Source: an uncultured bacterium
Lineage (GTDB): Bacteria > Zhuqueibacterota > QNDG01 > CAYUAG01
NCBI GenBank assembly: GCA_964554015.1
Contig: CAZKMO010000004.1
Location: 1-62,583 of the forward strand
Reading direction: 5' to 3'
Length of the DNA stretch: 62,583 bases
Part shown: positions 85 through 2,397 of the stretch, one piece after another
Position numbering within the stretch: the stretch's first letter is position 1
Layout: each line of letters begins with the position of its first letter
Position numbers and translations under genes: made by a program
Notes under the pieces: generated by a model
Seen by the model: the letters and a program-made list of their open reading frames with translations, nothing else
Told to the model about the DNA's origin: nothing
The model's database searches: none

Positions 85-912
85 TTAAAGAATATAATCC
101 TTGGTAATAATATTGGAATCATTTGCCAAACAAGATACTTCCCGCTTCCATTGCTGTATTAATTTGCCGGGTTCTTCTGATCTCATGAATGTTTCCCCAA
201 TCAGTACACCATCGAATCCGGATTCATACAGTTTTTTTACCTGGGAAGCATGGTGAATACCACTCTCACTAATTTTGACTATATGATCCGGAATTAACGC
301 CGCTAATTGTAACGATTTCTCTATATTCACTTCAAAAGTACTTAAATCTCGGTTATTAATACCAATGATCTCAGCCCCGCAGGCAATACTCTTTTCTATT
401 TCCTGTCGGGAATGAACTTCTACCAGAGATGACATTCCCAGGTTTCTGGTTATGGATATAAATTCTTTAAGTCTTTTTTCCTCTAAAATACGGGCAATCA
501 GAAGAATACAATCTGCTCCTAAAATTTTCGATTCATGCAATTGATAAGGGTCAATAATAAAATCTTTTCTTAAAACCGGCAGCTTGATGTTATCTTTTAG
601 GAAAGAGAGATGTTTTGTTTCTCCACCAAAGAACTTTTTATCTGTTAATACAGATATACCATCAGCTCCGTTCTTTTCATACTCTATAGCAATTCTCACC
701 GGATCAAAATTTTTTTTAAAATTTCCTGCTGATGGTGATTTTCTTTTTATTTCAGCAATAATGGATATCCCTGGCATTTTCATGCTAACCGTAAAATTAT
801 TTTTACGGTTATTATACTCAGGGTACTGATTGTTTAAAGAAACAGAAACCCTTGATTTTAATTTTTCTATTTCTTTCTTTTTATAACTGACTATTGTATC
901 CAAAATATCCAT
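85..912 (-). CDS. trpC: Indole-3-glycerol phosphate synthase
   Basis: IIAEIKRKSPS, SVLTD..FFGG, LRKDFIIDPYQ, LVEVH, IGINNRDL and SESGI motifs; TGATG overlap with trpD. Confidence 0.97.
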   Translation of the reverse strand: MDILDTIVSYKKKEIEKLKSRVSVSLNNQYPEYNNRKNNFTVSMKMPGISIIAEIKRKSPSAGNFKKNFDPVRIAIEYEKNGADGISVLTDKKFFGGETKHLSFLKDNIKLPVLRKDFIIDPYQLHESKILGADCILLIARILEEKRLKEFISITRNLGMSSLVEVHSRQEIEKSIACGAEIIGINNRDLSTFEVNIEKSLQLAALIPDHIVKISESGIHHASQVKKLYESGFDGVLIGETFMRSEEPGKLIQQWKREVSCLANDSNIITKDYIL

Positions 913-1931
913 CAGTTCTCCAGATTTGTCAATTCTCGTAAATACTCGACTTTTTCTTTAGCTTTGCCGGAATCAATTGATTTGGCAGCCATTTCGATTC
1001 CTTCCAGGATAGAATTCGCCTTATCACTGAGATAGATTACCGCCCCGGCATTCAGTAATACCATATCCCGGGCAGCCCCTTCCTGTCCCTCCAAGATCTC
1101 GAGAGTGATCTGATGATTTTTAATAGGATCTCCACCTATTATTTCAGAAAAATCACATTTTTTTAAACCAAAATCTTCCGGGGATATAAAATAATTTCTT
1201 ATTTCCCCATCTTTTAACTCACTTACCCTGGTTCTTCCCGATATGGAAATTTCATCAACTCCCTCCTCACCATGAACAACCAGAACATGTGTAGATCCTA
1301 AATTTTTCAATACATTAGCCAAAAGTTCGGTCAATTCTTCCCGGAATACTCCCATCAACTGTCGGTCTGCTTTGGCCGGATTGGTCAAAGGGCCCAGTAT
1401 ATTGAAAATAGTACGCACTCCTATTTCTCTACGGGGTCCGATAGCATATTTCATGGCTTTATGCAGAAGAGGAGCGTATAAAAATCCAAATCCGTTTTCA
1501 TCTATACATTTGGCCATAGTCTGAGGATCAATGTTGATATTAATACCTAATTGAGTTAAAATATCTGCGCTGCCACAACTACTTGAAACTGATTTATTTC
1601 CGTGTTTAGCGATATAGCACCCGGCTCCAGCAGCCACAAATCCACTTACCGTGGAAACATTAAAGGTATTTTTATTGTCCCCTCCTGTACCACACGTATC
1701 TATGAGAATATTATTTTTACAGGCTATAACAGTTGCTTTTTCTCTCATAGCTTTTACAAATCCGGAAATTTCATCAATGGTCTCTCCTTTAAGTCGTAAG
1801 GATACCAACAAGGCACTGATCTGGGCATCAGTGGTTTCTCCGTTCATGATATGGGAGGCGACACTATAGGATTGATCAAATGACAAGTTCTGTGCATCTA
1901 TTACTTTTTGGATGGCTTGTTTTATATCCAT
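912..1931 (-). CDS. trpD: Anthranilate phosphoribosyltransferase
   Basis: DTCGTGGD, NVST, KHGNKSVSS..GSAD and RTIFNILGPLTNP motifs. Start moved from 1967 to the ATG at 1931 (MDIKQAI), which follows a GGAGGG ribosome-binding site. Confidence 0.96.
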   Translation of the reverse strand: MDIKQAIQKVIDAQNLSFDQSYSVASHIMNGETTDAQISALLVSLRLKGETIDEISGFVKAMREKATVIACKNNILIDTCGTGGDNKNTFNVSTVSGFVAAGAGCYIAKHGNKSVSSSCGSADILTQLGININIDPQTMAKCIDENGFGFLYAPLLHKAMKYAIGPRREIGVRTIFNILGPLTNPAKADRQLMGVFREELTELLANVLKNLGSTHVLVVHGEEGVDEISISGRTRVSELKDGEIRNYFISPEDFGLKKCDFSEIIGGDPIKNHQITLEILEGQEGAARDMVLLNAGAVIYLSDKANSILEGIEMAAKSIDSGKAKEKVEYLRELTNLEN

Positions 1932-2008
1932 ATTTCCCTCCTTTTTTATTTCTTTAATGTCTATCAATTATTTTCTCTTTTTCTTATAACCATCACATCA
2001 AAGTCAGT

Positions 2009-2056
2009 ATCGGAATCGGTATCGCTATCGCAATCGAAAGTAATTCCTATTCCGAT
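2009..2056. repeat. Imperfect inverted repeat built from ATCGGA/ATCGCT-like hexamers
   Basis: Arms ATCGGAATCGGTAT (2009-2022) and ATTCCTATTCCGAT (2043-2056) are 12/14 complementary, with further hexamer units between and beside them. Confidence 0.55.
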
Positions 2057-2134
2057 GATAATAATTCTTATATTTTCATATTTATTTTCAAATTTGCTTG
2101 CATTCATCCGTATCCCATTTATATATTTCCGCAT

Positions 2135-2170
2135 AAAAAAAGCCGTGAAAACTCTTCCGGTTCCCACGGC
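2135..2170 (-). terminator. Second intrinsic terminator in the trp leader
   Basis: mRNA GCCGUGGGAAC-cggaaga-GUUUUCACGGC (11 bp, two GU pairs) followed by U7. Confidence 0.8.
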
Positions 2171-2185
2171 TTTTAAAATATAAAT

Positions 2186-2222
2186 AAAAAAAGGTGAGAA
2201 CCTTACTGAATGTTCTCACCTT
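2186..2222 (-). terminator. trp attenuator terminator hairpin
   Basis: mRNA AAGGUGAGAAC-auucaguaag-GUUCUCACCUU with a U7 tract, about 40 nt after the leader stop codon. Confidence 0.85.
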
Positions 2223-2262
2223 ATTATTATCTAATTATTTAGCTGTATTATTTACCTGCATT

Positions 2263-2337
2263 TCAGGTGAGACACTCTATAAAAAAGCGCCACCACCAAG
2301 ACAAACAATCTAATAAAATTTGTGAATAATACTGCAT
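2263..2337 (-). CDS. trpL: trp operon leader peptide (24 aa, MQYYSQILLDCLSWWWRFFIECLT)
   Basis: Three consecutive TGG codons followed by Arg; GGAGA RBS upstream; lies between a sigma70 promoter and the terminators upstream of trpD. Not in the ORF track. Confidence 0.9.
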   Translation of the reverse strand: MQYYSQILLDCLSWWWRFFIECLT

Positions 2338-2368: not shown

Positions 2369-2397
2369 ATAATACTAAAATTTTTTTAAAAAAGCAA
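2369..2397 (-). promoter_or_regulatory. sigma70-type promoter of the trp operon
   Basis: TTGCTT-N17-TATTAT on the minus strand, about 30 nt upstream of the trpL ATG. Confidence 0.65.

What the first reader, a model, noticed from the sequence alone, without database searches (positions are those of the whole stretch)
2135..2337. trp attenuator with two tandem terminators that can be disabled in relay
Seen in sequence: the WWW leader peptide is followed by two U7 terminators that look like diverged duplicates (GGUGAGAAC/GUUCUCACC and CGUGGGAAC/GUUUUCACG). The segment UCUCACCU at the leader stop (2272-2265) is complementary to the 5' arm of terminator 1 (AGGUGAGA). The freed 3' arm of terminator 1 (GUUCUCAC) can pair over 8 bp with the 5' arm of terminator 2 (GUGGGAAC). 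Established: a ribosome stalled on Trp codons exposes a downstream antiterminator, and the spacing fits here (Trp codons at 2298-2290). Inference: one stall event could switch off both terminators in a domino relay, giving tighter repression than the classical single terminator.
Basis: partly seen in the sequence, partly recalled or inferred. Interest (0 to 1): 0.7.

Follow-up and report, generated by a model that had tools for sequence, protein, structure and literature searches.

The report
Tryptophan attenuator with two linked terminators
Upstream of the tryptophan genes trpD-trpC of an uncultured salt-marsh bacterium sits a Trp-sensing leader peptide followed by two transcription terminators wired so that one stalled ribosome can probably switch both off in a chain, which combines two textbook designs in a way that I did not find described.

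Summary
A conserved promoter precedes a 24-codon leader ORF with three Trp codons (2298-2290). Two intrinsic terminators follow, T1 (2222-2186) and T2 (2174-2135), and then trpD-trpC.

The relay idea is supported by comparison, not by experiment. I recovered the same layout in 11 further loci from seven lineages whose TrpD is 61-85% identical. In every lineage the 3' arm of hairpin 1 pairs with the 5' arm of hairpin 2 (7-12 bp). This 4:5 helix covaries as strongly as the terminator stems themselves. It often extends into the loop of T2, where terminator formation imposes no constraint. In two lineages hairpin 1 has no U tract, so the relay is the only visible link between the leader and the single terminator.

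The wiring (1:2, 3:4, 5:6 against 2:3, 4:5) is that of the Salmonella his attenuator. What differs here is that the middle hairpin is itself a terminator.

No Rfam family matches, and no paper I found describes this design. No RNA data exist, and my kinetic simulation failed its E. coli control.

Verdict: a real trp attenuator and a new variant of a known kind, of moderate interest.

The parts
2369..2397 (-). Sigma-70-like promoter: -35 TTGCTT (2397-2392), 17-nt spacer, -10 TATTAT (2374-2369)
   Evidence: Read from the sequence. The same TTGnnn-N17-TAnnnT arrangement lies at the same distance upstream of the leader in L001, L002, L003, L163, L169, L173, L174, L168 and L175. The consensus scan did not list it because the -35 matches only 3 of 6 positions.
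2263..2337 (-). Leader peptide ORF, 24 codons plus UGA: MQYYSQILLDCLSWWWRFFIECLT
   Evidence: Every related lineage has a short ORF with WWW or WWWW while the rest of the peptide is diverged.
2290..2298 (-). Three consecutive Trp codons (UGG UGG UGG), the sensing site
   Evidence: Invariant in alignment A2.
2284..2297 (-). Segment 1 (GGUGGUGGCGCUUU), which pairs with segment 2 when no ribosome is present
   Evidence: 13-bp 1:2 hairpin in the MFE structure. Intramolecular dG -15.7 kcal/mol.
2265..2278 (-). Segment 2 (AGAGUGUCUCACCU), overlapping the end of the leader ORF and its stop codon. It pairs either with segment 1 or with the T1 5' arm.
   Evidence: The 2:3 helix has 12-13 bp and dG -12.7 to -16.4 kcal/mol. 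It is the best upstream partner of the hairpin-1 5' arm in all 10 loci that include the leader.
2186..2222 (-). Terminator T1 (segments 3 and 4): 11-bp stem, 10-nt loop, U7 run (2192-2186)
   Evidence: -15.0 kcal/mol. Recovered by RNAalifold with compensatory changes.
2194..2202 (-). Segment 4 as used in the relay helix (GGUUCUCAC): the T1 3' arm plus one loop G
2159..2167 (-). Segment 5 as used in the relay helix (GUGGGAACC): the loop-proximal part of the T2 5' arm
   Evidence: 9-bp 4:5 helix, duplex energy -15.1 kcal/mol and intramolecular dG -11.7 kcal/mol. Covariation.
2135..2174 (-). Terminator T2 (segments 5 and 6): 15-16-bp stem, U7 run (2141-2135)
   Evidence: -20.3 kcal/mol. RNAalifold consensus with 6 of 8 pairs changed on both sides.
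1964..2134 (-). Variable spacer between T2 and trpD. It holds a lineage-specific insert with a 47-codon ORF (2107-1964) and a GAT-hexamer repeat (2038-2003). It is probably not part of the switch.
   Evidence: Absent from L001, L003, L169, L173, L168, L172 and L174, where T2 lies 22-86 nt from the trpD start. The only promoter-like match in it scores 9 of 12, no better than background. No Pfam hit.
912..1931 (-). trpD, anthranilate phosphoribosyltransferase, the first regulated gene
   Evidence: Pfam PF00591 (1.5e-95) and PF02885.
85..912 (-). trpC, indole-3-glycerol-phosphate synthase, overlapping the trpD stop codon
   Evidence: Pfam PF00218 (1e-79). In relatives the order continues trpF then trpB.

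Best explanation
This is a ribosome-mediated, leader-peptide transcription attenuator of a trpD-trpC(-F-B...) operon. It has six alternately complementary RNA segments and two intrinsic terminators in series.

When charged tRNA-Trp is plentiful, the ribosome runs to the leader stop codon and covers segment 2. Segments 3:4 then fold into T1 and segments 5:6 into T2. An RNA polymerase that leaks through T1 meets T2.

When charged tRNA-Trp is scarce, the ribosome stalls on the WWW codons and leaves segment 2 free. Segment 2 pairs with the 5' arm of T1 (2:3). The freed 3' arm of T1 pairs with the loop-proximal half of the 5' arm of T2 (4:5). Neither terminator forms, and transcription enters trpD.

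Without translation, 1:2 forms and both terminators fold.

Because 4:5 can form only if T1 did not, T2 should stop polymerases that leaked past a folded T1 but pass those that were properly antiterminated. That would lower the basal level without lowering the induced level.

Shown here: the sequence elements, their conservation, and covariation of 3:4, 5:6 and 4:5. Inferred: ribosome positions, the kinetics, and the effect on expression.
For: 1. Anatomy. Promoter, WWW leader, 1:2 hairpin, T1, T2, then trpD-trpC.

2. Recurrence. The same layout occurs in L001, L002, L003, L162, L163/L164, L169/L170, L173, L175, L174, L168 and L172. TrpD identity between lineages is 61-85%. Loops and spacers are diverged. 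The hairpin-1 to hairpin-2 spacer stays at 10-19 nt.

3. The 4:5 helix. It has 7-12 bp in every locus. It beats a null that permutes the H2 stem columns (fraction at least as good 0-0.038). The T1 3' arm is the best upstream partner of the H2 5' arm in 10 of 11 loci. Of the 4:5 pairs, 4-7 use nucleotides outside the H2 stem in L163, L169, L173, L175 and L174. In L169 and L175 the helix is more stable than T2 (-20.1 against -11.3, and -14.4 against -13.7 kcal/mol).

4. Covariation of 4:5 on MAFFT alignment A2. 87.9% of cells pair, 5 of 9 pairs change on both sides, and the score is 0.372 against 0.214 for shuffles (0 of 500 reached it). Slid controls gave 32-50% paired. This is comparable with H1 plus H2 themselves (94.2% paired, score 0.330).

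5. Relatives without a first terminator. In L168, L172 and L174 hairpin 1 has no U tract, and the leader can reach the single terminator only through 2:3 and then 4:5.

6. No room for a second promoter. T2 lies only 22-56 nt from the trpD start in L169, L173, L168, L172, L174 and L001, so both terminators must be read through.

7. Energetics. In the window 2:3 is -12.7 and 4:5 is -11.7 kcal/mol, against -10.9 for the proven E. coli trp antiterminator. Findpath barriers are 8.7 kcal/mol (2:3 to T1) and 15.5 (4:5 to T2), against 5.8 in E. coli. Before segment 6 is made, 2:3 plus 4:5 (-24.4) is more stable than T1 alone (-15.5).

8. Strain variant. It has 18 substitutions, none in segments 2-6.
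Against: - There is no transcript evidence. No RNA run holds this locus.
- At equilibrium T1 and T2 form whatever ribosome mask is applied. The E. coli control behaves the same way, so this is uninformative rather than contrary.
- In the window T2 (-20 kcal/mol) is much more stable than 4:5 (-11.7).
- Between the T1 decision and the emergence of segment 5, T1 (-15.5) could displace 2:3 (-12.7). That would re-arm T2.
- Positions 3-9 of the 4:5 helix also lie in the T1 and T2 stems, so part of the covariation is shared with those hairpins.
- The lineages are related, so their agreement is not fully independent.
- In the window a 206-nt insert separates T2 from trpD, and a promoter there cannot be excluded.
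Confidence: 0.7

Rival explanations
1. T1 is a classical Trp-regulated attenuator, but T2 is an unregulated back-up terminator. Under this view the T1/T2 complementarity is only a leftover of a duplication.
For: T1 and T2 arms are 7 of 9 identical. At equilibrium T2 always folds. In the window T2 is 8-9 kcal/mol more stable than 4:5.
Against: - The 4:5 helix extends into the T2 loop and the T1 loop in five lineages, where a hairpin-only constraint would not conserve complementarity.
- The helix covaries.
- It is stronger than T2 itself in L169 and L175.
- A constitutive T2 placed 22-56 nt before trpD would permanently throttle the operon.
- L168, L172 and L174 need the 4:5 link for any regulation.
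Confidence: 0.12
2. T2 is antiterminated directly by segment 2 (a 2:5 pairing) rather than through the T1 3' arm. For example, this could happen when T1 folds but fails to terminate.
For: Segment 2 has partial complementarity to the T2 5' arm because segments 3 and 5 resemble each other. The 2:5 duplexes range from -5.9 to -13.2 kcal/mol.
Against: - In every locus 2:5 is weaker than or equal to 4:5. The window has -8.0 against -15.1 kcal/mol, and L172 has 4 bp against 7 bp.
- The top-ranked upstream partner of the H2 5' arm is segment 4 in 10 of 11 loci.
- The loop-extension pairs match segment 4, not segment 2.
Confidence: 0.06
3. In this genome trpD is transcribed mainly from a promoter inside the 206-nt insert downstream of T2. 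The leader with its two terminators would then yield only a short RNA, possibly a trans-acting attenuator-derived sRNA like Sinorhizobium rnTrpL.
For: The insert (2134-1932) is lineage-specific. It contains a promoter-like match, TTGAAA-N16-AAGAAT at 2091-2064, scoring 9 of 12. Attenuator RNAs can act in trans (PMC6614838).
Against: - The match is no better than background (8 found against 7.3 expected).
- It is not conserved. Most relatives have no room for a promoter.
- The attenuator stems are under purifying selection in strains that carry the insert.
Confidence: 0.07
4. This is not a regulatory element. Under this view a chance small ORF lies next to two ordinary terminators.
For: None beyond the absence of an Rfam match.
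Against: WWW or WWWW leaders with matching alternative pairings recur in seven lineages directly upstream of trpD. The fold z-score is -7.4. No converging gene needs these terminators.
Confidence: 0.01

Closest known systems
Salmonella / E. coli his operon attenuator (six segments A-F; Johnston et al. 1980, as described in PMC4046918)
   Same: A leader peptide with a run of regulatory codons. Three hairpins (A:B, C:D, E:F) in the repressed or untranslated state, against two alternative hairpins (B:C, D:E) when the ribosome stalls. The signal passes along a chain of alternately complementary segments. The window's 1:2, 3:4, 5:6 against 2:3, 4:5 is the same logic.
   Different: In his, only E:F is a terminator. 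Here the middle hairpin (3:4, the C:D position) carries its own U6-U7 tract in five of seven lineages, which gives two termination points. The regulatory codons are Trp, not His. There is no sequence similarity. The his comparison rests on the published description and was not recomputed here.
E. coli trp operon attenuator (trpL; Rfam Trp_leader RF00513)
   Same: Tandem Trp codons in a short leader. A 1:2 hairpin, a 2:3 antiterminator and a 3:4 terminator with a U run. The stop-codon-proximal segment 2 is masked by a terminating ribosome. The helix energies are similar.
   Different: No Rfam model matches, even at E up to 10. There are three Trp codons instead of two, and the regulated operon starts at trpD, not trpE. 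A second terminator and a second antiterminator (4:5) are added.
Tandem sensor-terminator units, as seen here in Flavobacteriaceae loci L021 and L038 (two leader+terminator units). Tandem riboswitches and tandem T-boxes are cited from general knowledge.
   Same: Two intrinsic terminators in series before one biosynthetic operon, presumably multiplying the repression.
   Different: Those systems repeat the whole sensor, so each terminator has its own leader, T-box or aptamer. Here one leader peptide controls both terminators through RNA-RNA coupling.
Three-hairpin attenuators (terminator, antiterminator, anti-antiterminator), for example Corynebacterium glutamicum ilvBNC (PMC11857589)
   Same: Leader-peptide control with overlapping alternative hairpins.
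   Different: A single terminator and a shorter chain of alternative hairpins.

Membership tests
Ribosome-mediated (leader-peptide) transcription attenuators | A short ORF with consecutive codons for the amino acid made by the downstream operon | tested here: met
   24-codon ORF with WWW at 2298-2290 upstream of trpD-trpC. WWW or WWWW is conserved in all related leaders.
Ribosome-mediated (leader-peptide) transcription attenuators | An intrinsic terminator between the leader ORF and the first structural gene | tested here: met
   T1 (-15.0 kcal/mol, U7) and T2 (-20.3 kcal/mol, U7). Both are conserved with compensatory changes.
Ribosome-mediated (leader-peptide) transcription attenuators | An antiterminator mutually exclusive with the terminator, whose upstream strand is covered by a ribosome at the leader stop codon but free when the ribosome stalls at the regulatory codons | tested here: met
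   Segment 2 (2278-2265) overlaps the stop codon and pairs with the T1 5' arm over 12-13 bp. It is the best upstream partner in all 10 loci. It lies 12-33 nt downstream of the last Trp codon (2290), outside a stalled ribosome's footprint. The footprint size is taken from general knowledge.
Ribosome-mediated (leader-peptide) transcription attenuators | Amino-acid-dependent termination and read-through in vivo or in vitro | not testable with these tools
   No RNA run holds the locus and the organism is uncultured.
his-type six-segment relay attenuators | Six alternately complementary segments, giving A:B, C:D, E:F or B:C, D:E | tested here: met
   In the window 1:2 is -15.7, 2:3 -12.7, 3:4 -15.5, 4:5 -11.7 and 5:6 -19.6 kcal/mol. 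The 4:5 helix is conserved and covaries.
his-type six-segment relay attenuators | The middle hairpin (C:D) is a plain hairpin and not a terminator | tested here: not met
   Hairpin 1 is followed by U7 in the window clade, by U6 in L163, L169 and L175, and by UUUUCUUUUU in L173. The feature is met only in L174, L168 and L172.
Rfam Trp_leader (RF00513) or any other Rfam leader family | A covariance-model match at or above the gathering score | tested here: not met
   No leader family matched even at E up to 10. The only matches were sub-threshold hits to sRNAs with terminators. The only gathering-level hit in the window is a tRNA.

The most novel reading that the evidence does not exclude
A single-sensor, two-terminator 'checking' attenuator. 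The second terminator reads the folding state of the first one through the 4:5 helix. It therefore kills only transcripts that leaked past a correctly folded T1 and passes those that were genuinely antiterminated. This would multiply the dynamic range without a second sensor. It would define an undescribed trp-leader RNA family in a largely uncultured clade whose nearest named TrpD relative is candidate division WOR-3. Natural variants of that family gain or lose the U tract on the middle hairpin.
Probability: 0.45. Interest if true: 0.6.

Novelty: new variant of a known kind. Interest (0 to 1): 0.48.

Why it matters
Leader-peptide attenuation is a textbook mechanism studied almost only in Proteobacteria and a few Gram-positive bacteria. 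This locus shows it in an uncultured sediment lineage. Its wiring merges the his-type relay with tandem termination, so that one ribosome stall would control two termination points.

If the relay works, it is a compact natural way to lower leaky expression without adding a sensor, which could be useful for synthetic RNA switches. The family also offers a natural experiment, because sister lineages differ only in whether the middle hairpin carries a U tract. Finally, it supplies about a dozen sequences for a new RNA family model that genome annotation currently lacks.

Tried and rejected
1. Rfam, at gathering scores and at E up to 10. No leader family matched. The sRNA hits only reflect the two terminators.

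2. The consensus promoter and terminator scan. It missed T1, T2 and the conserved promoter because of its rule limits, so it cannot be used against them.

3. Collection scans with TrpD. The genome scan gave only three close loci and the metagenome scan gave one identical locus. The wider family was found only by looking up individual TrpD homologues. Two of those (L167, L171) have trpD inside larger operons without a leader.

4. RNA-seq runs. None is available.

5. Equilibrium folding with ribosome masks. It always shows T1 plus T2. The same test on E. coli trpL also shows its terminator under a stalled-ribosome mask. The test therefore cannot detect a kinetic switch, and I discarded it.

6. 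A home-made co-transcriptional heuristic that combined MFE, findpath barriers and Arrhenius jumps. It failed its E. coli positive control: the results changed erratically with the rate constant and were sometimes inverted. I draw no conclusion from its output for the window.

7. The small hairpin ACCUG/CAGGU just after the stop codon. It is not conserved in L001 or L003, so I ignored it.

8. The idea that the likeness of T1 and T2 proves a duplication. I rejected it as unnecessary, because alternating complementarity forces that likeness.

9. Literature searches for two-terminator leader-peptide attenuators. They found nothing. The library is incomplete, so this is weak evidence of novelty.

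Full report
**What is there**

On the minus strand of window 2400-1900 I read the following elements, in order.
- A promoter-like TTGCTT-N17-TATTAT at 2397-2369.
- A 24-codon ORF at 2337-2263, MQYYSQILLDCLSWWWRFFIECLT, with three Trp codons at 2298-2290.
- Terminator T1 at 2222-2186: an 11-bp stem, a 10-nt loop and a U7 run.
- An 11-nt A/U spacer.
- Terminator T2 at 2174-2135: a 15-16-bp stem and a U7 run.
- A 206-nt spacer.
- trpD (ATG at 1931; Pfam PF00591 and PF02885) and trpC (PF00218).

The 221-nt leader folds far better than shuffled versions, with z = -7.4. That fold also shows a 13-bp hairpin between the Trp codons (segment 1) and the segment at the stop codon (segment 2). The T1-3'arm:T2-5'arm helix is 9 bp rather than 8: GGUUCUCAC (2202-2194) pairs with GUGGGAACC (2167-2159).

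**Where it comes from**

The window belongs to an uncultured, low-GC (about 33%) bacterium found in salt-marsh and marine-sediment metagenomes. TrpD has only a few close relatives, all from unnamed MAGs. It has hundreds of relatives at 59-67% identity, one of them labelled candidate division WOR-3.

No Rfam family matches the leader, even at E up to 10.

**Relatives**

Collection scans and twelve look-ups of TrpD homologues gave upstream regions in seven lineages.
- The window clade: L001, L002, L003, L162 and L081.
- L163/L164.
- L169/L170.
- L173.
- L175.
- L174.
- L168/L172.

TrpD identity between these lineages is about 61-70%.

All share the same plan:
- a sigma-70-like promoter;
- a short ORF with WWW or WWWW whose remaining residues are diverged;
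- two hairpins separated by a 10-19-nt spacer;
- trpD after the second hairpin.

In six loci the second hairpin ends only 22-56 nt before the trpD start codon, which leaves no room for another promoter.

Hairpin 2 always has a U run. In L173 the run is interrupted (UUUCUUUU). Hairpin 1 has a U run in five lineages: U7 in the window clade, U6 in L163, L169 and L175, and UUUUCUUUUU in L173. It has none in L174, L168 and L172.

Two other homologues, L167 and L171, have trpD inside larger operons without a leader.

**Tests of the relay**

1. Best partner. In each locus I scanned the whole leader transcript for the best partner of each 5' arm. For hairpin 1 it is always the segment at or just after the leader stop codon. 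For hairpin 2 it is the 3' arm of hairpin 1 in 10 of 11 loci, with a near-tie in L174.

2. Strength against a null. The 4:5 duplex has 7-12 bp and -9.3 to -22.3 kcal/mol. It is better than 96-100% of hairpin-2 variants made by permuting stem columns and shuffling the loop. The alternative 2:5 pairing is weaker or at best equal everywhere.

3. Extension beyond the stems. The 4:5 helix uses 4-7 nucleotides that lie outside the hairpin-2 stem in L163, L169, L173, L175 and L174. It also uses 1-3 nucleotides outside the hairpin-1 stem in most loci. Terminator formation alone would not conserve complementarity at those positions. In L169 and L175 the helix is more stable than T2 itself.

4. Covariation.

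| Structure tested | Alignment | Cells paired | Pairs changed on both sides | Covariation score | Shuffled mean | Shuffles reaching it | Slid controls, paired |
|---|---|---|---|---|---|---|---|
| 4:5 helix | A2 (MAFFT, 11 leaders) | 87.9% | 5 of 9 | 0.372 | 0.214 | 0/500 | 32-50% |
| 4:5 helix | A1 (hand-registered) | 87.5% | 5 of 9 | 0.417 | 0.200 | 0/500 | 29-50% |
| H1 + H2 stems | A2 | 94.2% | 8 of 14 | 0.330 | 0.210 | 0/500 | 43-60% |

Examples of the changes in 4:5: A-U becomes G-U and then G-C at column pair 110/139, and G-C, A-U and U-A all occur at 104/145. Part of this signal is shared with the terminator stems, and the lineages are related, so it is supportive rather than conclusive.

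5. A natural control. In L168, L172 and L174 hairpin 1 is not a terminator. The only visible path from the leader to the single terminator is 2:3 and then 4:5.

6. Within-species variation. A strain variant in run X9 has 18 substitutions and a 3-nt spacer insertion over 234 nt, and none lies in segments 2-6. If substitutions fell at random, the chance of this is about 0.003 by my own estimate.

**Energetics**

Intramolecular free energies in the window, compared with E. coli trpL, whose sequence I confirmed at 100% identity in 5,422 genomes:

| Helix | Window (kcal/mol) | E. coli trpL (kcal/mol) |
|---|---|---|
| 1:2 | -15.7 | -17.5 |
| 2:3 | -12.7 | -10.9 |
| 3:4 | -15.5 | -14.0 |
| 4:5 | -11.7 | none |
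| 5:6 | -19.6 | none |

Direct-path barriers:

| Transition | Barrier (kcal/mol) |
|---|---|
| E. coli 2:3 to 3:4 | 5.8 |
| Window 2:3 to T1 | 8.7 |
| Window 2:3+4:5 to 2:3+T2 | 15.5 |

Before segment 6 is transcribed, 2:3 plus 4:5 (-24.4) is more stable than T1 alone (-15.5). The secondary antiterminator is therefore at least as credible, by these measures, as a proven primary one.

Equilibrium folding with ribosome masks always gives the terminators, but it does the same for E. coli. It is uninformative. My own kinetic heuristic failed the E. coli control, and I discard it.

One weak point remains. About 25 nt are transcribed between the T1 decision and the emergence of segment 5. During that time T1 could displace 2:3 and re-arm T2. 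The 2:3 helix covers the whole T1 5' arm plus two loop bases and leaves no free toehold. This may slow the displacement, but that is inference.

**Mechanism proposed**

With ample Trp-tRNA, the ribosome at the stop codon masks segment 2, and T1 and T2 fold. With scarce Trp-tRNA, the ribosome stalls on WWW, 2:3 forms and then 4:5, and both terminators are prevented. Without translation, 1:2 forms and both terminators fold.

T2 can be antiterminated only when T1 did not fold. It should therefore remove leaky read-through of T1 selectively.

**Comparison with known systems**

The alternation of three hairpins against two is the published his-operon scheme: A:B, C:D, E:F against B:C, D:E (PMC4046918). 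The relay as such is therefore known.

The first four segments work like the E. coli trp attenuator.

What I did not find described is a middle hairpin that is itself a terminator, which puts two terminators under one leader peptide. Four full-text searches found nothing. The library is incomplete, so this is only weak evidence of novelty.

Systems with two terminators in series normally duplicate the sensor. Two Flavobacteriaceae loci fetched here, L021 and L038, show exactly that, with two complete leader-terminator units.

**Verdict**

I class it as a new variant of a known kind, in an RNA family not yet catalogued. Interest is moderate (0.48). Confidence is about 0.9 that this is a Trp-responsive leader-peptide attenuator, and about 0.7 for the full two-terminator relay.

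Noticed in passing
window 1964-2107 (minus strand); repeat at 2003-2038; also L002 2930-2975: A lineage-specific insert of about 150 nt lies between T2 and trpD. It carries a 47-codon ORF (MNASKFENKYENIRIIIIGIGITFDCDSDTDSDTDFDVMVIRKRENN) with a GAT-hexamer repeat. A similar GATAGCGATAGCGAAATCGATACCGATACCGAT stretch sits just before trpD in L002. At 80% likeness the repeat attracts many unrelated metagenome contigs (depth up to 70). It has no Pfam hit. Whether it is a gene, a mobile repeat or just low-complexity DNA is open.
   Followed up: partly
L021 745-1000 and L038 about 750-1000: Flavobacteriaceae (Mesonia, Haloflavibacter) have two complete leader-peptide plus terminator units in tandem before trpE. 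The first has a WW leader and the second a WWW leader, each with its own hairpin and U run. This is a different route to two terminators in series.
   Followed up: partly
window 2251-2265, in run X9: A marine-sediment strain variant changes the leader stop codon from UGA to UGC and creates UAA four codons downstream. It has 16 further substitutions and a 3-nt insertion in the T1-T2 spacer. Segments 2-6 are untouched.
   Followed up: partly
L162 100-250; L163 300-520; L002 2660-2990: The spacer between T2 and trpD varies widely between relatives (22 to 350 nt). The long versions contain different short direct repeats, for example ACACAAAG in L163, GCTGATAGCTGATAGCTGA in L163 and CACAGAGATCACAGAG in L162. 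This suggests repeated insertion at this site.
   Followed up: no
L002 2461-2542 and 3001: The L002 leader has no in-frame AUG and probably starts at UUG. Its TrpD was called 42 residues too long (P0004, 381 aa) by reading through the acidic repeat.
   Followed up: no
L019, L020, L022-L025, L027 at about 860-990: Marine Flavobacteriaceae single-cell genomes share a conserved trp leader (MKKLQLNMWWWKHEIFIS) with one terminator. The second T run downstream has no hairpin before it.
   Followed up: partly
L161, L165, L166: Several assemblies of related TrpD genes break within 20-55 nt upstream of trpD. This may be because the variable or repetitive spacer, or the twin hairpins, hinder assembly.
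   Followed up: no
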